Below, piece by piece: positions 51,264-59,070 of a DNA stretch of 64,000 bases. This DNA comes from a virus. The stretch covers positions 32,001 through 96,000 of the IMG/VR virus record IMGVR_UViG_3300023276_001086. The stretch is one strand, 5' to 3'. Numbering within the stretch: position 1 is the first letter of the stretch; each line of letters opens with the position of its first letter. A program made the position numbers and the translations under genes. The notes beneath the pieces were generated by a model, which saw nothing but the letters and a program-made list of their open reading frames with translations, did no database searches and was not told the origin of the DNA.

Positions 51264-51609
51264 TGATCACCCCCTTCAGCACAGCCCCAAAGCCCGCTCT
51301 GGAAAACTCGACGAGCAGCTTCGTGATATGAGCAAGATTACCGGGTGTGTGATCTTTGGTGACAAACTCGAGCCTAACGAGCTCACGACCAACCTGCGGG
51401 GCGATATCCCGCTGAAGAAAACGCATGAACTCGATGAACGCACGAGGGTCCTTGAACTTCTCGTCGTCCCCCATCCGCACGAGGTCGGAGGACTTCCCCC
51501 GCCAACTGCACATATCGCATTGCCGATCCCACTCCCCTATGACGAGTAAGTCTTCAACCTGTGGGCAGCCGCACTGAGGGCACACTACCATCGCTTCTTC
51601 CTTCCCCAT
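51250..51609 (-). CDS. Zinc-ribbon protein
   Basis: CPQC...CDMC. Confidence 0.6.
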   Translation of the reverse strand: MGKEEAMVVCPQCGCPQVEDLLVIGEWDRQCDMCSWRGKSSDLVRMGDDEKFKDPRAFIEFMRFLQRDIAPQVGRELVRLEFVTKDHTPGNLAHITKLLVEFSRAGFGAVLKGVISARE

Positions 51610-53354: not shown

Positions 53355-53406
53355 ACTATTAGAAGTCGTGGGGACTTTACCTCTGACATTTACAAAAGGA
53401 AAAGCC

Positions 53407-55284
53407 GTGAACAACGAAGTCATGATCTTCTCAACCAGTGACATTTTTACCAACCTCCGTAACCGGCCCTCCGGCCGGATAGTGGCAGAGAATAGAGACG
53501 GCGTGTACGTCTCGACTGAGAAACTGGAAGCGGCCGTCAACAGCGGGTTCAGGTGCTATGTCGCGTCAACGCGCGAGCGGCTCACTGATGGAGATAGTTG
53601 GTGGGTTGAGATCGTCGGCCGGGACAACGTGTTCCTGGCCGAAGAGCCCGAGTATTATTGCGACTACGGTCCTTCTCAGGACCGGAACGCCTGCGTGAGC
53701 AAGGGGTACACCGACCTCGCGGCCCACCTCGGCGCCGCATGGCCGACGGACAAATGGGATGGCAGACCTGCGTTCTGGCCGAGCGGGATGCCCAAAGTCG
53801 CGGAAGCCCAAGGATGGACTATGGCCAAGTCCTGGGAAGGGCCGATAGAGCTACCGAAGGCGGTACGGCAGGTGGCCAAACACCTCCAAGTGTTTGCGAA
53901 GGCCACGGTGCTGCTAGTAGGCGGTGCCGTGGTAGACGCCCTCCAGGGACGAACGCCAAAGGATTGGGACCTCGAGGTGTACGGGGTGGCGCCCCCGGAC
54001 GTGATCGAGGTGCTCGATCGACACGGGTGGAAACCCCAGGCGGTGGGGAATGCGTTTGGGGTTGTAAAGCTCGCGCACGACGCCACGGATGGCGTCAGTA
54101 TTGATATCAGCTTCCCCAAAGCTGACAACACCCGAGATGGCGAGACGGACTTCGGTCCAGTCGACATCTACATGACACCCGCCGAGGCCGCCCTCCGGCG
54201 GGACCTCACCATCAACAGCCTCATGTACGACATCGAGGCTAGGAAGGTCATCGACAGCCACGGAGGGCTAGATGACCTACGTGACGGGGTGCTTCGGGCA
54301 ACGTCGCCCGAGCACTACGCACAAGACCCGATCCGCCCCCTGCGCGCAATGCAACTCGCGGCACGCAAGGTGCCAAACGTCGACCCCCTCACCATGGCGC
54401 TCCTCCGCTCAATGGCCACCGACGAGGCGTTCGCCTCCTTGGCCATCGAACGCGTGGGGGAGGAGTTCCACAAACTGATGATGGCTGAGAAGCCATCCAT
54501 CGGTCTCGAGGTACTCCGAGAATCGGGGTGGTTGCGCTTCTTCCCTGAACTCGAGGCACTGGTCGGGTGTCCGCAGAACCCAGACCACCACCCCGAGGGT
54601 CCGGTGTGGGACCACACGATGCTAGTGGTGGACGCCATGTCCTCCCTCGCGCGCACCGGCACCTCCTGGACCGAGGAGCCCCTCGATGGCCTGCGCCGGA
54701 AGGCCCTCATGTTCGCGGCGCTCTGCCACGACTTGGGGAAGCCAGTCACGGTGCAAGACGACTTGTCGTGCCCCAAGCATGACGTCGAGGGCGAAGAGTT
54801 GGTGCGCTCCTTCCTCGGACGCCTCACCAACGAAACGGTCCTGACCGAGGCGGTCGTCGCCCTGAGTCGAAACCACATGAGACCATTCGGTCTCGTGGAC
54901 GGCAAAGCTCGAGAGTCGCGCTGGGGGCGGCTCAAGGCCGACCTGGTCAAGCACCCCAAGCTGAAGAATGGCGGTCTGCCCAGCCTCGAAGATGCTGGCT
55001 ACCTCTCCCGAGCAGACTGGATGGGCTCCCGCCCAGTCGGCACCCGCTTCGCCAACGGCTCCACCACGGAGACGGACCGCGACCACCACGAGATTGCCGA
55101 GAGGTGCTGGGAGATGCACCGCGAGCTCGAGAAGGCCGAGCCCTTGGTCGGCGGGCGCGACCTCATCAAGGCCGGGGTCAAGCCCGGACCCCAGATGGGC
55201 AAGCTGGTGAAGGCGGCCTACGTCATCCAGCTAGACGAGCCCGAGCTCGCCCTCGAGGAGCTCATCGCTCGAGTGATGTCGTGA
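53407..55284 (+). CDS. cca: tRNA nucleotidyltransferase (CCA-adding/poly(A) polymerase family) with HD domain and N-terminal extension
   Basis: VGGAVVD..KDWDLEV, RRDLTINS, DPIRPLRA, HHPEG..WDH, HDLGKP; likely start GTG 53407 after AAGGA. Confidence 0.85.
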   Translation: MNNEVMIFSTSDIFTNLRNRPSGRIVAENRDGVYVSTEKLEAAVNSGFRCYVASTRERLTDGDSWWVEIVGRDNVFLAEEPEYYCDYGPSQDRNACVSKGYTDLAAHLGAAWPTDKWDGRPAFWPSGMPKVAEAQGWTMAKSWEGPIELPKAVRQVAKHLQVFAKATVLLVGGAVVDALQGRTPKDWDLEVYGVAPPDVIEVLDRHGWKPQAVGNAFGVVKLAHDATDGVSIDISFPKADNTRDGETDFGPVDIYMTPAEAALRRDLTINSLMYDIEARKVIDSHGGLDDLRDGVLRATSPEHYAQDPIRPLRAMQLAARKVPNVDPLTMALLRSMATDEAFASLAIERVGEEFHKLMMAEKPSIGLEVLRESGWLRFFPELEALVGCPQNPDHHPEGPVWDHTMLVVDAMSSLARTGTSWTEEPLDGLRRKALMFAALCHDLGKPVTVQDDLSCPKHDVEGEELVRSFLGRLTNETVLTEAVVALSRNHMRPFGLVDGKARESRWGRLKADLVKHPKLKNGGLPSLEDAGYLSRADWMGSRPVGTRFANGSTTETDRDHHEIAERCWEMHRELEKAEPLVGGRDLIKAGVKPGPQMGKLVKAAYVIQLDEPELALEELIARVMS

Positions 55285-55563: not shown

Positions 55564-56082
55564 ATGCGTGTGGCAGATAGAAGTTCCGAGGGAAGAGGAG
55601 ATCGAACCACTTCACGTGTGTCGGTTCTGCGGAGCCAACATCGAGACGATGGAGGACCTGAGACTGGGGATATGCCCGTGGTGCAAGACGAGGCACGATT
55701 TCTAGGGCACACCTGCACCACCAATCGCGGTGGTGTCTACCGAAGCTGGCCGGTCCTTGACCTATGGGAGCTGGCCAAAGACCTACACACCTTCGAGCTC
55801 CCACCCGAACAGCTCCCCGAGTTCGACTTCTACATCGACTCGGAGCCACGGTTCTTCTGGTGGTCCCGGGCTCGAGGGACCAAAGAACAGTTCACGATGC
55901 GTGATCTGGCAGACCACATCCGCCGGGTCAACGATGCCGACCTGAGCTTCCCCATCTTGTTGAACCCGGAAGGGGGTGTGATGGATGGGCTGCACCGGAT
56001 GATGAAGGCCCACATCCTGGGCGTGTGCGTGCGTGTTCAGCAGTTCGAGGAGTGGCCCCCAGAAGGTGCAAAACCGCAGTAA
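55564..56082 (+). CDS. ParB/Sulfiredoxin-like N-terminal domain protein
   Basis: ADLSFPILL..GGVMDGLHRMMKA; strong RBS. Confidence 0.7.
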   Translation: MRVADRSSEGRGDRTTSRVSVLRSQHRDDGGPETGDMPVVQDEARFLGHTCTTNRGGVYRSWPVLDLWELAKDLHTFELPPEQLPEFDFYIDSEPRFFWWSRARGTKEQFTMRDLADHIRRVNDADLSFPILLNPEGGVMDGLHRMMKAHILGVCVRVQQFEEWPPEGAKPQ

Positions 56083-56095
56083 AACTGGGGATAAG
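56068..56095 (+). promoter_or_regulatory. Phage promoter motif GCAA-N15-GGGGATAAG
   Basis: Upstream of the leader hairpin (56100-56135) and the tRNA-like RNA. Confidence 0.7.
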
Positions 56096-56135
56096 ACTAA
56101 TAGTGATCTTGGAGGTGCTACCTCCGAATCATTAT

Positions 56136-56314
56136 GGGGACCGCGAGTTCCGTCTTGTGAAACTGAAGGATGACCAATCCTAAAGTAACACCGTTGAAAG
56201 GCCTGGTAAGCCTGACACTGATGATGGATGGTACGCTCGAACGCCAAGGAGAAGGAGGGTTGATCGCCTCTGGACTTTGGTTGTTTACTGGTTCGACTCC
56301 AGTCGGTCCCCCCA
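56136..56314 (+). ncRNA. Expanded tRNA-like RNA (179 nt) with His-type G-1:C73 acceptor end
   Basis: GGGGACCG/CGGTCCCC plus CCA; T-arm ACTGG-TTCGACT-CCAGT; D-stem GTTC/GAAC; anticodon-stem equivalent CCAAGG/CTTTGG. Confidence 0.7.
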
Positions 56315-56982
56315 TGGCACACATGGACAACGAAGCCCGCAAGGGAAACGGCTCTAACACGACACCCTCAAACGCCGAGTTCGTCGATGAAACCGACGCG
56401 GCCGAAATATTCGCCAGCCACCTATCTCGCCTGGAGCGACAGGTCGAGACCCTCGTGGCCGACGCCGCAGACGCGGCAGAGAATGCCGAGGATGCGGCTA
56501 AATACGCCGAGCGCGAGCGGCGACTAGGCCTGAGCCATGTCGAGCGTCTCAGAGACGACGCCGACCAAGCCCGCTTCGCGCTCGCCGACGCCAACGCCGA
56601 CTACATCGGCGTGCGCACCGCACAATATGTGGACGCCTGCGCGGCGGCGGACAAAGCCGAAGCTGAGGCTGAGGCTCTCGCGCAGGCCACCATCGAAGAG
56701 TTCAATTCGATGGCGCCAGTAGAGCAGGCGAAGGCTCTGCTCGCCGAAAAGCTCGGCGATGATGCGGCTGACGCGATCCTGTTCGCACTCACTGCGAGGG
56801 AGCAGGAAAGGGCGGCAACTCGCCGCAAGAAGATTGCCACCGCCCTGAAGGTCGGGGCCTCGATGGCCGCGATGGGCGGGCTCTATGGAGGGATCATCGG
56901 GATGGCCGTCGAGGCCGCCAAGCCCAAGACCCGCAGGGCCAAGATCGCAACCAAGTTGGTGAATTGGGCCTTCGCCCGCTAG
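56314..56982 (+). CDS. Ala-rich coiled-coil protein with C-terminal TM segment
   Basis: ORF 56170..56982; protein-like composition begins at ATG 56314 or 56323; start uncertain, no clear RBS. Confidence 0.65.
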   Translation: MAHMDNEARKGNGSNTTPSNAEFVDETDAAEIFASHLSRLERQVETLVADAADAAENAEDAAKYAERERRLGLSHVERLRDDADQARFALADANADYIGVRTAQYVDACAAADKAEAEAEALAQATIEEFNSMAPVEQAKALLAEKLGDDAADAILFALTAREQERAATRRKKIATALKVGASMAAMGGLYGGIIGMAVEAAKPKTRRAKIATKLVNWAFAR

Positions 56983-57830: not shown

Positions 57831-58471
57831 GCCGCCCCCAACTTACTGAGAACCCTTCGGCACTCATCATCAAACCTATCGCAGTCGATGATGAGCCGAA
57901 CCGTACCAGAGGGGTCCTCGAGCAAGACAACGCTACTCCGCGCACCAGAACGGATATCCGCCCACCGTTCTAGCGCGGTACCGATTTGCCGAACCGGTAA
58001 CCTCATCCTGTTCAAGATGGTAGCGAGGAGCAGACGACGAACATCCTCCACGGACCACACTCGTCGAGTACCCTTCCCGTCCGCTTCCCCAATCGATGGC
58101 ACCACCACCAACGTCTCCGCCATGTGGATCATCATGCGTTGCGTAATCCCGAGGGCTTTCGAGATACGCACGCCACTCGCGGCAATCTCCCCCACCACCC
58201 CGCGGACAACCGCAACGGCTCTCCTCTTCTCTGACTTCCCCCTTTCTTCCTCCCTCATTCGCTCTATCGTTACCGCAGCCTTCTCTACGTCTCCGTAGAG
58301 GTACAGATCTATGCTCTCGACCTCTCCCGGTTTTGGGTTGACCCAACCGTTGAATATCTTGTTCAATCTGCCCACGTTCAGGTCGAGATCACGCGACATC
58401 TGATTCTGCCTGATACCATTCGCCGCTAGTTGAACCTTCCAGTCCGTGGCGCGCTTCATGTCTACCTTCAT
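57827..58471 (-). CDS. Transcription regulator: XRE-like HTH plus MerR-like HTH
   Basis: GIRQNQMSRDLDLNVGRLNKIFNGWVNP; ISKALGITQRMM..GTRRVWSVEDV. Confidence 0.7.
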   Translation of the reverse strand: MKVDMKRATDWKVQLAANGIRQNQMSRDLDLNVGRLNKIFNGWVNPKPGEVESIDLYLYGDVEKAAVTIERMREEERGKSEKRRAVAVVRGVVGEIAASGVRISKALGITQRMMIHMAETLVVVPSIGEADGKGTRRVWSVEDVRRLLLATILNRMRLPVRQIGTALERWADIRSGARSSVVLLEDPSGTVRLIIDCDRFDDECRRVLSKLGAA

Positions 58472-59070
58472 GCTCCCCTTATGGCCCGCTTGACGGGCGC
58501 GTAGGACCGTCGGTGCTCTGGACAGGGCCCGTGCTTCTTCAACTGGGCAAGGTGTACCACCGTTGGGTAGCCCTTGTGTGTCTCGAACCCGTAGGCTGGG
58601 TACGCCGCCGCCATCCCTGCTATCAGCTGGTCTCTCCAGACCTTAGCGATGATGGATGCTGCCCCAACAGCCTGCACCTTGGCGTCAGCCTTAGGCATGG
58701 CAGTCTGCTGAGCGGTAGGCACGGGGTGAGGCAACTTGGTCTTGCCGTCCACGACGACGTGGGCATCAGGGAACCGTTCGAGGCAGCACATGGCGCAGGA
58801 GACCATGCAGCCCCGAAGACACTGATTGATGCCGTGCTCGTCGATGAACTCGACCCCCGACTGGGCAATCACCCAGTGAAGACTGTGTTCGTGGATGGCG
58901 TGGATGACATTGACACGCTGATGGGGCTTGAGCGCCTTTGAGTCACCCACACCGTCCACGACCAGCTCCTCCGGGAAGACCACGGCAGCGACGACCACCG
59001 GACCCGCAATGGGCCCAAGCCCCACCTCATCTATGCCGATAATGTTCATCAGACCCAACCCCGCTGTCAC
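58468..59070 (-). CDS. rnhB: Ribonuclease HII
   Basis: GIDEVGLGPIAGPV, DSK, VDG, KAD..VGAASIIAKV.RD, HKGYPT, HRRSY; start may be 59049. Confidence 0.92.
   Translation of the reverse strand: MTAGLGLMNIIGIDEVGLGPIAGPVVVAAVVFPEELVVDGVGDSKALKPHQRVNVIHAIHEHSLHWVIAQSGVEFIDEHGINQCLRGCMVSCAMCCLERFPDAHVVVDGKTKLPHPVPTAQQTAMPKADAKVQAVGAASIIAKVWRDQLIAGMAAAYPAYGFETHKGYPTVVHLAQLKKHGPCPEHRRSYAPVKRAIRGA

What the first reader, a model, noticed from the sequence alone, without database searches (positions are those of the whole stretch)
56100..56314. Expanded 179-nt tRNA-like RNA with His identity, giant D-loop and no anticodon loop
Seen: GGGGACCG (56136-43) pairs with CGGTCCCC (56304-11) and is followed directly by CCA. 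A canonical T-arm ACTGG-TTCGACT-CCAGT (56287-303) stacks on it. A D-stem GTTC/GAAC (56147-50/56239-42) encloses 88 nt instead of a short loop; the insert contains hairpins AGGAT/ATCCT and AGGC-CTGGTAA-GCCT and a TTGTGAA heptamer. An anticodon-stem equivalent CCAAGG/CTTTGG encloses 25 nt with a further GAGG/CCTC hairpin. A TTGTTT variable region follows. A long leader hairpin (56100-135) and a promoter motif lie immediately upstream. Established: an extra G-1:C73 pair is the bacterial tRNA-His identity element, and the acceptor+T minihelix is what RNase P, CCA enzyme and EF-Tu read. Inference: a non-decoding, possibly histidylated tRNA mimic (decoy for anticodon nucleases or stress sensors, amino-acid donor, or processing tag) that tRNA finders would probably miss.
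Basis: partly seen in the sequence, partly recalled or inferred. Interest (0 to 1): 0.9.

Follow-up and report, generated by a model that had tools for sequence, protein, structure and literature searches.

The report
Expanded tRNA-like RNA of marine phage
A 168-kb seawater phage encodes a roughly 180-nt RNA with a true tRNA acceptor stem and T-arm around a large conserved core and no anticodon loop; it belongs to a small, undescribed family of phage tRNA mimics, but the "histidine identity" proposed for it is not shared by its relatives.

Summary
Window 56136-56314 (+) carries an 8-bp acceptor helix, a canonical T-arm and an encoded CCA. They enclose about 140 nt with no anticodon loop, downstream of a phage promoter motif and a leader hairpin. 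ARAGORN and Rfam find nothing.

I found two diverged full-length homologues (L008, L009/L010) and one miniature (L005). All lie directly upstream of the same gene family (ORF222), in relatives that also share the nearby CCA-adding enzyme.

- **Covariation:** acceptor and T stems covary in all lineages. Window versus L008 keeps 91.6% of cells paired, with 16 double-compensatory pairs. Controls with slid partners give 31-47% and 1-5.
- **Not coding:** the reading frame through the RNA is not conserved.
- **Not an att remnant:** the 5' strand covaries and no integrase was found.
- **Not tmRNA or Y RNA.**
- **What fails to generalise:** G-1:C73 becomes U:G and U:A in the relatives. The encoded CCA becomes CCG. 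The UUGUGAA heptamer and the proposed GUUC/GAAC D-stem are not kept; the conserved helix is CGAG/CUCG.

Best reading: a non-decoding tRNA mimic, excised by tRNA-processing enzymes from the 5' end of the ORF222 transcript. Its CCA end would be maintained by the phage enzyme, and its conserved core would bind an unknown partner. It is a new variant of a known kind. No expression data exist.

The parts
56069..56095 (+). Phage promoter-like motif, CAAAA-N17-ATAAG
   Evidence: The motif occurs 12 times in the genome against 0.25 in shuffles. It also heads the RNA in L008 and the CCA-enzyme genes of L004-L007.
56100..56135 (+). 5' leader with hairpin GGAGGT-gct-ACCTCC (56111-56125). It would be removed if RNase P cuts at 56135/56136 or 56136/56137.
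   Evidence: Sequence. The same promoter-hairpin arrangement precedes other genes of the phage and the L008 RNA.
56136..56143 (+). Acceptor 5' strand: G-1 plus GGGACCG
   Evidence: Pairs with 56304-56311. Three of the 8 pairs change on both sides in L008 and five differ in L009; all stay paired.
56144..56147 (+). Helix B 5' strand, CGAG. It pairs with CUCG at 56236-56239 and closes the large 'D-side' domain.
Evidence: The CGAG/CUCG core is conserved in L008, shifted by one pair.
56157..56191 (+). Hairpin H1: a long irregular stem with the apical AGGAU-GACCA-AUCCU
   Evidence: Four pairs change on both sides between window and L008 and stay paired. The loop NACCA is kept.
56196..56212 (+). Invariant 17-nt block holding hairpin H2 (GGC-CUGGUAA-GCC), which resembles a D-arm
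   Evidence: Identical in window and L008, although their flanking proteins are only 30-61% identical. There is no covariation because nothing varies. The loop's UGGU is complementary to the ACCA of the H1 loop (read from the sequence; inference).
56236..56239 (+). Helix B 3' strand, CUCG
   Evidence: See the helix B 5' strand.
56240..56285 (+). Helix C: a long arm in the position of the anticodon arm. The lower stem is 56240-49 / 56275-85. The apical hairpin GGAGG-GUUGAUCG-CCUCU is at 56254-56271.
   Evidence: In the lower stem, 5 pairs change on both sides and 2 on one side, and all stay paired. The 24-nt block 56251-56274 is invariant between window and L008. The loop has 8 nt and no conserved anticodon-loop signature.
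56287..56303 (+). T-arm: a 5-bp stem and the loop UUCGACU
   Evidence: The stems are ACUGG, GCUGG, GUGGG and CAGGG in four lineages, each with a matching 3' strand. The loop is always UUCRA-NN.
56304..56314 (+). Acceptor 3' strand CGGUCCC, then C73, then encoded CCA (56312-14). A56314 is also the A of the ORF222 start codon.
   Evidence: The tail is CCG in L008 and L009. The CCA/ATG overlap recurs only in L005.
56314..56982 (+). ORF222: a coiled-coil protein with a C-terminal membrane segment. It is the only gene always found directly downstream of the RNA.
   Evidence: Homologues P0122, P0123 and the L005 fragment all begin at the aligned Met. No Pfam or PHROG family matches, apart from a sub-threshold YajC hit.
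53368..55284 (+). Class II CCA-adding enzyme (PolyA_pol head, RNA-binding and HD domains) with an extra N-terminal part of about 165 aa
   Evidence: Pfam. The N-terminal extension is present only in the window and in P0003. P0003 comes from the same sample as L008, which holds the RNA with the same core.

Best explanation
This is a phage-encoded, non-decoding tRNA mimic and a member of a small, undescribed RNA family.

How it most likely works:
1. It is transcribed from a phage promoter as the 5' part of the transcript that also carries ORF222.
2. Its coaxial acceptor/T-arm minihelix (8+5 bp, T-loop UUCRA) is the part that RNase P, tRNA 3'-end nucleases and CCA-adding enzymes read. The RNA is therefore cut out as a stable species of about 180 nt.
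3. RNase P removes the leader hairpin at or next to 56136.
4. The 3' end is trimmed to N73-CC(A) and completed or maintained by the CCA-adding enzyme. The phage encodes such an enzyme two genes upstream.
5. The same cuts define the 5' end of the ORF222 mRNA.
6. The RNA has no anticodon loop, and a long arm sits where the anticodon arm would be, so it cannot decode.
7. Its invariant core loops (CUGGUAA, NACCA, GUUGAUCG) present a specific surface to a partner not yet identified. The partner could be a host tRNA-handling factor or the phage enzyme's extra N-terminal domain. My favoured role is a decoy or sponge in the conflict over tRNA 3' ends.

Shown: the conserved structure, the genomic context, and the absence of a decoding loop. 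Inferred: processing, CCA maintenance, action in trans, and the partner.
For: Structure:
- All helices are present.
- A covariance model built from the window finds L008:367-545 at 78.7 bits, E 1e-16.
- On that alignment 91.6% of cells pair and 16 pairs change on both sides. Controls with slid partners give 31-47% and 1-5. No shuffle of 500 reaches the observed values.
- My own homologous-pair table gives 45 pairs: 28 unchanged, 13 doubly compensated, 2 changed on one side and kept, 2 broken.
- The acceptor and T stems covary in three full-length lineages plus L005, while the T-loop stays UUCRA.
- The spacing from the acceptor 5' strand to the T stem is exactly 150 nt in both window and L008.
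- The minihelix is indistinguishable from real tRNAs. The same 21-mer ends bona fide tRNA-Val, Asn, Arg and Leu genes.

Context:
- The promoter motif and leader hairpin stand upstream in window and L008.
- No terminator separates the RNA from ORF222.
- ORF222 follows directly in all four lineages.
- The CCA-adding enzyme lies in the same block.
- N73-CC is encoded in all three full-length copies.

Constraint: the 17-nt and 24-nt blocks are identical between phages whose flanking proteins are 30-61% identical.

Precedent: M. smegmatis YrlA has a 7-bp acceptor stem, is cut by RNase P in vitro, and receives CCA in vivo (PMC4201824).

In more distant phages, related CCA enzymes sit beside an RNA ligase or an AAA_33 kinase-like gene, a tRNA-repair setting.
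Against: - No transcript data exist, so a discrete RNA, its ends and its CCA status are all inferred.
- Only three full-length lineages are known, and the interior of L009 cannot be aligned with the other two. A common trans-acting surface is therefore not demonstrated.
- L005 keeps only the minihelix. L004 appears to have promoter, hairpin, SD and ATG with no RNA in between. The core is therefore dispensable in close relatives, which fits a cis-acting processing role as well as, or better than, a trans role.
- In the window and in L005, maturation exactly at CCA would remove the A of the ORF222 start codon. Excision and translation of one molecule may therefore exclude each other.
- No partner has been identified. 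The N-terminal domain of the CCA enzyme gave no usable model or family.
Confidence: 0.5

Rival explanations
1. It is purely a cis-acting element of the ORF222 transcript. It would work like a plant-mitochondrial t-element: a processing or punctuation signal, a 5'-end stabiliser or a translational control structure. The excised RNA, if any, would have no function of its own.
For: - The element lies directly upstream of ORF222 in all four lineages.
- The miniature L005 version keeps only the acceptor-like stem and T-arm, and it buries GGAGGA two nt before the ATG.
- In the window the ATG has no Shine-Dalgarno sequence and overlaps CCA. The start of translation must therefore depend on this structure or on its removal.
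- Plant-mitochondrial t-elements set mRNA ends in this way (PMC1920247, listed).
Against: - A processing signal needs only the minihelix. It does not explain the 17-nt and 24-nt invariant core blocks, or the compensated helices H1 and C kept across deep divergence.
- L008 and L009 have an ordinary hairpin, SD and start codon after the RNA, so ORF222 does not generally need the element for initiation.
- The synteny may simply reflect common descent.
Confidence: 0.2
2. One reading: a histidine-accepting tRNA mimic, charged by host HisRS through G-1:C73 and used as a decoy, an amino-acid donor or a tag.
For: The window copy has G-1 paired with C73 directly before an encoded CCA. From established knowledge, this is the main bacterial HisRS identity set. 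A minihelix can suffice for charging.
Against: - The homologues have U-1:G73 and U-1:A73 and end in CCG.
- The UUGUGAA motif is not conserved.
- The phage has no HisRS.
- G3:C70 and the rest of the acceptor show no shared identity set.
- The eighth pair may simply be leader pairing, which is common in ordinary pre-tRNAs.
Confidence: 0.08
3. It is a decayed or interrupted tRNA gene (a pseudogene, or a tRNA with insertions or an intron), or a tRNA-derived attachment-site remnant with no present RNA function.
For: - The minihelix matches the 3' ends of real tRNAs.
- tRNA 3' fragments of the att type do occur in viral and bacterial contigs. L014 shares 25 identical nt with L008. L024 has a tRNA-Arg followed by two repeated 3' fragments.
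Against: - att remnants keep only the 3' part. Here the 5' acceptor strand lies 150-173 nt upstream and covaries with the 3' strand.
- No tyrosine integrase is found in the phage.
- No removal of any internal segment restores a cloverleaf with an anticodon loop.
- The interior is under strong constraint rather than decaying.
- The insert is too small for a group I intron, and Rfam reports none.
Confidence: 0.05
4. The stretch is protein-coding: an N-terminal extension of ORF222. The frame is open from 56170, or from the UUG at 56260 behind AAGGAGG, and the RNA-like helices are then incidental.
For: The frame is open for 49 codons upstream of the ATG in the window and for 39 in L008. In both, the 3' half reads in frame into ORF222.
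Against: - In L009 the frame closes after 6 codons. L005 has no start codon in its 29 open codons.
- Protein similarity begins at the aligned Met.
- Between window and L008, the differences in that frame are about 8 non-synonymous codons to 1 synonymous, and many restore base pairs (read from the and 92 alignments).
- AAGGAGG is only 1 nt from the UUG.
- The gene predictions on record start at 56314.
Confidence: 0.03
5. It is a reduced tmRNA-like rescue RNA.
For: It has an acceptor stem, a T-arm and a large intervening domain. Its T-loops are identical to those common in tmRNAs. L009 gives a 12.5-bit partial hit to beta_tmRNA over the T-arm only.
Against: - There is no G3:U70; the pair is G3:C70 in all three copies.
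- No tag reading frame was recognised.
- ARAGORN's tmRNA search and the Rfam tmRNA models are negative.
- It is about half the usual length.
Confidence: 0.02

Closest known systems
YrlA / bacterial Y RNAs with a tRNA-like domain (Rfam YrlA; Chen et al. 2014, PMC4201824)
   Same: Both are non-decoding RNAs that carry a tRNA-like T-arm and acceptor-like stem and are also found in phages. M. smegmatis YrlA is cut by RNase P and receives CCA. L005's miniature gives a weak, non-significant match to the tRNA-like part of the Deinococcus Y RNA (21.7 bits, E 2.4).
   Different: - In Y RNAs the 5' and 3' ends form the Ro-binding stem. Here they form the acceptor stem itself.
- The phage has no Ro/TROVE or RtcB gene.
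- There is no Rfam hit.
- The core domain is unrelated.
tmRNA (SsrA)
   Same: Both have an acceptor stem and T-arm enclosing a large non-tRNA domain, are processed by RNase P, and end in CCA.
   Different: This RNA has no G3:U70, no tag ORF and no detected pseudoknot series. It is about 180 nt rather than 260-430 nt. ARAGORN and Rfam are negative.
Bacteriophage T4 stable 'species 1' and 'species 2' RNAs of the tRNA gene cluster (recalled from the 1970s literature; not checked here)
   Same: These are phage-encoded stable RNAs, longer than tRNA, of unknown function. They are matured by the tRNA-processing machinery.
   Different: T4's lie inside a cluster of real tRNA genes. This phage has no tRNA gene at all. 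I could not test sequence or structural relatedness because no reference sequence was at hand.
mascRNA/MALAT1 and plant-mitochondrial t-elements (PMC1920247; PMC8457004, listed)
   Same: Each is a tRNA-like fold embedded in a longer transcript. Cleavage by RNase P and RNase Z releases a small RNA and at the same time sets the end of the neighbouring RNA. CCA addition is known for mascRNA.
   Different: Those are eukaryotic or organellar and of tRNA size, with an anticodon-arm equivalent. This one is bacterial-viral, with an extra conserved core of about 100 nt.
Bacterial tRNA-His
   Same: The window copy has G-1:C73 followed directly by CCA, giving an 8+5 bp coaxial stack.
   Different: It has no D-arm or anticodon arm in the canonical places and no GUG anticodon loop. 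G-1:C73 is absent from the homologues.
Histidine-accepting tRNA-like structures of plant RNA viruses (PMC8127992, listed)
   Same: The concept is the same: a viral RNA that mimics the tRNA acceptor end without decoding.
   Different: Those sit at the 3' ends of +ssRNA genomes and have a pseudoknotted acceptor. This one is a DNA-phage gene with a true two-strand acceptor stem.

Membership tests
tRNA (canonical, decoding) | 7-bp acceptor stem, discriminator and (C)CA end | tested here: met
   GGGACCG/CGGUCCC + C73 + CCA in the window. ACGACCG/CGGUCGU + G + CC in L008. GCGGUAG/CUACCGC + A + CC in L009.
tRNA (canonical, decoding) | T-arm: 5-bp stem and a 7-nt loop U54-U55-C56-R57-A58 | tested here: met
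   The loops are UUCGACU, UUCAACU, UUCGAUU and UUCGAUC, with covarying stems.
tRNA (canonical, decoding) | Anticodon arm: 5-bp stem, 7-nt loop with U33 and a purine at 37, at cloverleaf distance | tested here: not met
   The arm in that position has about 15 pairs with an internal loop and an 8-nt apical loop, GUUGAUCG. UUGUGAA is unpaired by context and not conserved. ARAGORN is negative even with introns allowed.
tRNA (canonical, decoding) | D-arm two nt after the acceptor stem, with G18-G19 | tested here: not met
   Helix B (CGAG/CUCG) follows the acceptor stem directly and encloses about 88 nt. A D-arm-like hairpin, GGC-CUGGUAA-GCC, exists but lies 55 nt from the acceptor stem.
tRNA-His identity | G-1 paired with C73 | tested here: inconclusive
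   Present in the window. It is U:G in L008 and U:A in L009. It is therefore met in this copy and not met as a family feature. The mature 5' end is unknown.
tRNA-His identity | Charging by HisRS | not testable with these tools
   This needs an aminoacylation assay. The phage has no HisRS gene.
tmRNA | G3:U70 alanine identity pair | tested here: not met
   G3:C70 in all three full-length copies.
tmRNA | Tag reading frame with resume codon; recognised by tmRNA models | tested here: not met
   ARAGORN's tmRNA search finds none. The Rfam tmRNA families give only a 12.5-bit T-arm fragment.
YrlA / Y RNA | Ro-binding stem formed by the RNA's two ends, with an adjacent Ro60 (TROVE) gene | tested here: not met
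   No TROVE or RtcB gene in the phage. The RNA's ends form the acceptor stem. No Rfam match at the gathering threshold.
tRNA-derived att-site remnant | Only the 3' part of a tRNA gene, next to an integrase | tested here: not met
   The 5' strand is present and covaries. No Phage_integrase family match in the genome.
RNase P / CCA-enzyme substrate (works like a pre-tRNA) | Coaxial acceptor/T minihelix of 12-13 bp with a T-loop, N73-CC at the 3' side and a 5' leader | tested here: met
   Met at the sequence level in three lineages. Cleavage and CCA addition themselves cannot be tested with these tools.

The most novel reading that the evidence does not exclude
The RNA and the neighbouring CCA-adding enzyme, with its unique N-terminal domain, form a dedicated phage module. 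The tRNA mimic is cut from the ORF222 transcript so that a near-leaderless mRNA and a CC-ended RNA arise together. The phage enzyme completes the RNA to CCA. The mature mimic then acts as a decoy or sponge for a host factor that attacks or senses tRNA 3' ends, for example an acceptor-end-modifying toxin. Its invariant UGGU, ACCA and GUUGAUCG loops would form the recognition surface.
Probability: 0.12. Interest if true: 0.85.

Novelty: new variant of a known kind. Interest (0 to 1): 0.62.

Why it matters
Phage tRNAs and tRNA-repair enzymes are now seen as weapons in the conflict with host defences that cut or modify tRNA. A conserved phage RNA that keeps only the enzyme-recognition half of a tRNA, adds a constrained core of its own, and travels with a phage CCA-adding enzyme would be a new kind of player in that conflict. 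It would also be a new natural example of tRNA mimicry outside tmRNA and Y RNAs.

It shows that standard finders (ARAGORN, Rfam) miss such RNAs, so more may lie hidden in viral metagenomes.

The window and L005 arrangement, with CCA fused to the start codon of an mRNA that lacks a Shine-Dalgarno sequence, offers a testable link between tRNA-type processing and leaderless translation.

Tried and rejected
- **Homologue searches that found nothing real:**
  - blastn of the locus against cultured phages;
  - tblastn of P0123 against the same collection;
  - The search for related loci with the two flanking proteins and with alignment A2, in viral and metagenome contigs;
  - an exact 22-mer;
  - a two-block pattern in metagenome, viral and genome contigs.
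- **Coincidental hits:** the 18-mer of the invariant hairpin hit three viral contigs, but those lie in coding sequence and have no surrounding structure.
- **Minihelix 21-mer:** it hit ordinary tRNA genes and tRNA fragments, not family members.
- **Protein searches:** the profile search A4 and the exhaustive search found only P0122 and P0123.
- **Distant CCA-enzyme phages:** L029-L031 have no expanded tRNA-like element within 10 kb.
- **Sequencing runs:** no RNA holder is listed. Five seawater DNA runs hold the stretch. Their contigs show no variant letters, so they add no microdiversity for covariation.
- **Model limits:** model R1 does not detect L009. Its weak hit at window 51355-51471 (-) (17.9 bits, E 0.013) lies in a coding region without a T-loop and was dismissed.
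- **N-terminal domain of the CCA enzyme:** the AlphaFold model has pLDDT 41 and is unusable. The ESM Atlas, Pfam and PHROGs are all blank.
- **Antisense targets:** a search of the phage genome for targets of the conserved loops found only the locus itself and chance-level 7-8-mers.
- **Considered and dropped, no statistical support:**
  - archaeal-type intron with a C/D-box sRNA (UGAUGA/CUGA motifs), because the boxes are not conserved in L008 and the enzyme is a bacterial-type class II enzyme;
  - mimicry of the 16S rRNA 3' end by the invariant hairpin.
Full report
**1. What is in the sequence**

The window is bases 32001-96000 of a 167,832-bp IMG/VR virus record, estimated 95% complete. Identical copies occur in seawater metagenome assemblies.

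- GGGGACCG pairs with CGGTCCCC and is followed by CCA.
- A T-arm, ACTGG-TTCGACT-CCAGT, stacks on the 3' strand of that helix.
- About 140 nt lie in between.

The minimum-free-energy fold (-65.5 kcal/mol, z = -2.6) is a four-way junction with these arms:
- the acceptor helix, 8 bp;
- helix B, which closes an 86-nt domain;
- a long arm, helix C, where the anticodon arm would be;
- the T-arm.

ARAGORN finds no tRNA or tmRNA in the window or in the whole phage. Rfam 15 finds nothing at gathering thresholds and only noise at E up to 10.

My own scan of the genome found seven hairpins with a UUCRA T-loop. Only this one has a perfect 7-bp acceptor partner and a CCA tail.

**2. Transcription context**

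It occurs 12 times in the genome against 0.25 in shuffles, usually followed by a small hairpin, a Shine-Dalgarno (SD) sequence and a start codon.

One copy is at 56069-56095. After it come "actaatagtg", a hairpin (56111-56125) and then the RNA. No terminator follows the RNA. A56314 of the CCA is the A of the start codon of a 222-aa ORF (56314-56982), and that ORF has no SD sequence.

Two genes upstream (53368-55284) lies a class II CCA-adding enzyme with PolyA_pol head, RNA-binding and HD domains.

**3. Homologues**

Nothing similar exists in cultured phages, in IMG/VR or in JGI metagenomes. The homologues came through the neighbouring proteins.
- An exhaustive protein search with ORF222 gave two distant relatives, P0122 and P0123, 29-32% identical.
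- Their contigs carry a 313-445-nt non-coding stretch in front of the gene.
- L008 has the same promoter motif, a leader hairpin and a 179-nt RNA with identical architecture.
- L009/L010 has a roughly 200-nt RNA with the same outer minihelix but a different interior.
- L005 was found through a 63-65%-identical CCA enzyme. It has only a miniature: an acceptor-like stem and a T-arm (CAGGG-TTCGATC-CCCTG), 11 nt before the ATG of the ORF222 homologue.
- L004 seems to have promoter, hairpin, SD and ATG with no RNA.

**4. Covariation**

The outer helices, written from -1:73 to 7:66:
- Window: G:C G:C G:C G:C A:U C:G C:G G:C.
- L008: U:G A:U C:G G:C A:U C:G C:G G:C.
- L009: U:A G:C C:G G:C G:C U:A A:U G:C.

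The T stems are ACUGG, GCUGG, GUGGG and CAGGG, each with its complement, while the loop stays UUCRA.

A covariance model of the window's fold finds L008 at 78.7 bits, E 1e-16. On that alignment:
- 91.6% of cells pair, against 31-47% when the 3' partners are slid by 1-3 columns.
- 16 pairs change on both sides, against 1-5 in the slid controls.
- None of 500 shuffles reaches the observed values.

An independent hand-mapped table gives 45 homologous pairs: 28 unchanged, 13 doubly compensated, 2 changed on one side, 2 broken.

Supported helices:
- acceptor;
- B (CGAG/CUCG);
- H1 (56157-56191);
- lower C (56240-49 / 56275-85);
- T.

H2 (GGC-CUGGUAA-GCC) and the apical hairpin of C (GGAGG-GUUGAUCG-CCUCU) are invariant, so they show constraint but not covariation. 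A helix at 56150-55 / 56226-31 is weak.

Caveats: the comparison rests on two sequences for the interior and three or four for the minihelix, and the alignment was fitted to the model.

**5. What it is not**

- **Not coding.** The frame through the RNA is open in the window and in L008, closes after 6 codons in L009, and has no start codon in L005. Protein similarity starts at the aligned Met. Substitutions in that frame are overwhelmingly non-synonymous and restore base pairs.
- **Not an att remnant.** Such remnants (L014, L024) keep only the 3' part. Here the 5' strand covaries, and the phage has no tyrosine integrase.
- **Not a split or intron-bearing tRNA.** No excision restores an anticodon arm, and UUGUGAA is not conserved.
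- **Not tmRNA.** The third pair is G3:C70, there is no tag ORF, and the finders are negative.
- **Not a Y RNA.** There is no Ro/TROVE or RtcB gene, the ends are arranged differently, and Rfam gives no hit.

**6. The histidine question**

G-1:C73 plus encoded CCA is specific to the window copy. L008 and L009 have U at -1, G or A at 73, and CCG. From established knowledge, U-1 is the usual nucleotide before an RNase P site, so its pairing with position 73 may be incidental.

No common aminoacylation identity can be read from the acceptor stems, and the phage has no HisRS. Charging of the window's RNA with histidine remains possible but unsupported.

**7. How it most likely works**

What is conserved everywhere is the part of a tRNA read by RNase P, 3'-end nucleases and CCA-adding enzymes. 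A 7-bp acceptor stem is a major RNase P determinant. M. smegmatis YrlA has one, is cut by RNase P in vitro, and receives CCA in vivo (PMC4201824).

I therefore read the element as follows:
- It is a tRNA mimic excised from the 5' end of the ORF222 transcript.
- It ends in N73-CC(A), maintained by the CCA enzyme encoded in the same block.
- Its excision also sets the 5' end of the ORF222 mRNA.
- In L008 and L009 that mRNA starts with the phage's usual hairpin and SD.
- In the window and L005 it would be nearly leaderless.

The 17-nt and 24-nt blocks are identical between phages whose flanking proteins are only 30-61% identical. This argues that the core binds something specific.

One correlation deserves a test. 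The extra N-terminal part of about 165 aa on the CCA enzyme occurs only in the window and in P0003, the enzyme from the sample that holds L008, which has the same RNA core. This rests on n = 2 and is confounded by phylogeny.

Related CCA enzymes in more distant phages sit beside an RNA ligase or an AAA_33 kinase-like gene. This is consistent with a tRNA-repair and conflict setting, but those phages lack the RNA.

The main rival is a purely cis-acting, t-element-like role. It fits the constant position before ORF222 and the L005 miniature, but it does not explain the constrained core.

**8. Verdict**

This is a real, conserved, structured RNA and a new family of phage tRNA mimic. It is a new variant of a known kind, alongside tmRNA, YrlA, mascRNA and the T4 stable RNAs.
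- The non-decoding-mimic reading is supported.
- The histidine identity and the proposed D-stem are not supported.
- The function is inferred, and no expression data exist.

The scan had noted this same stretch in other notes on this genome. It had not noted the element on other DNA.

Noticed in passing
window 53368-53900 (N-terminal ~165 aa of the CCA-adding enzyme): This extra domain is conserved at 47% identity with P0003 and absent from P0004-P0006. Pfam, PHROGs and the ESM Atlas have no match, and the AlphaFold model reaches only pLDDT 41. Its presence tracks the window/L008 type of RNA core.
   Followed up: partly
window 56172-56176 and 56204-56207: The H1 loop ACCA and the H2 loop UGGU, both invariant in window and L008, are complementary. 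They could form a 4-bp loop-loop contact. UGGN is also the T-box motif that pairs with tRNA NCCA ends.
   Followed up: no
L009 124-320: About 200 nt of non-coding, GC-rich sequence lie upstream of the L009 RNA, without the promoter motif seen in the window and L008. It could be a long leader or a second RNA.
   Followed up: no
L014 9826-9850 (-): A 25-nt stretch (T-arm plus acceptor 3' strand) is identical to L008's. It sits in an unrelated viral contig just after an HNH-endonuclease-like gene, with no convincing 5' partner. It looks like a tRNA 3' fragment of the att type.
   Followed up: partly
L024 5841-6045: In a Phycisphaerales genome, a tRNA-Arg(ACG) is followed by two further copies of its 3' end at 67-nt spacing. 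This resembles scars of integration into the tRNA gene. Seven of the 14 genomes with the minihelix 21-mer are Planctomycetota, a weak hint at the host group.
   Followed up: no
L030 10001-12499; L029 10001-12021: More distant phage CCA enzymes (about 43% identical) sit next to an RNA ligase (PF09414) or an AAA_33 kinase-like gene. These look like tRNA-repair cassettes.
   Followed up: no
L031 17083-17236 (-): ARAGORN calls two adjacent odd tRNAs in a related phage contig: one with a 2-nt 'anticodon' and a tRNA-His with anticodon ATG.
   Followed up: no
window 51355-51471 (-): Model R1 gives a weak hit here (17.9 bits, E 0.013), inside a 119-aa ORF. The site has a GGGGAC.../...GUCACC outer helix but no T-loop. 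It is probably chance.
   Followed up: partly
L004 2600-2645; L005 2800-2835; L008 250-295: A conserved hairpin (GCGCTGACAYTCGTCAGGCTCCTGCGG...), often followed by TTAGCT or TTAGAT, ends the gene before the RNA or ORF222 unit in three relatives. It is a shared terminator-like element of this phage group.
   Followed up: no
window 58468-59070 (-): RNase HII gene (Pfam E 6e-31), 2 kb downstream of the RNA.
   Followed up: no
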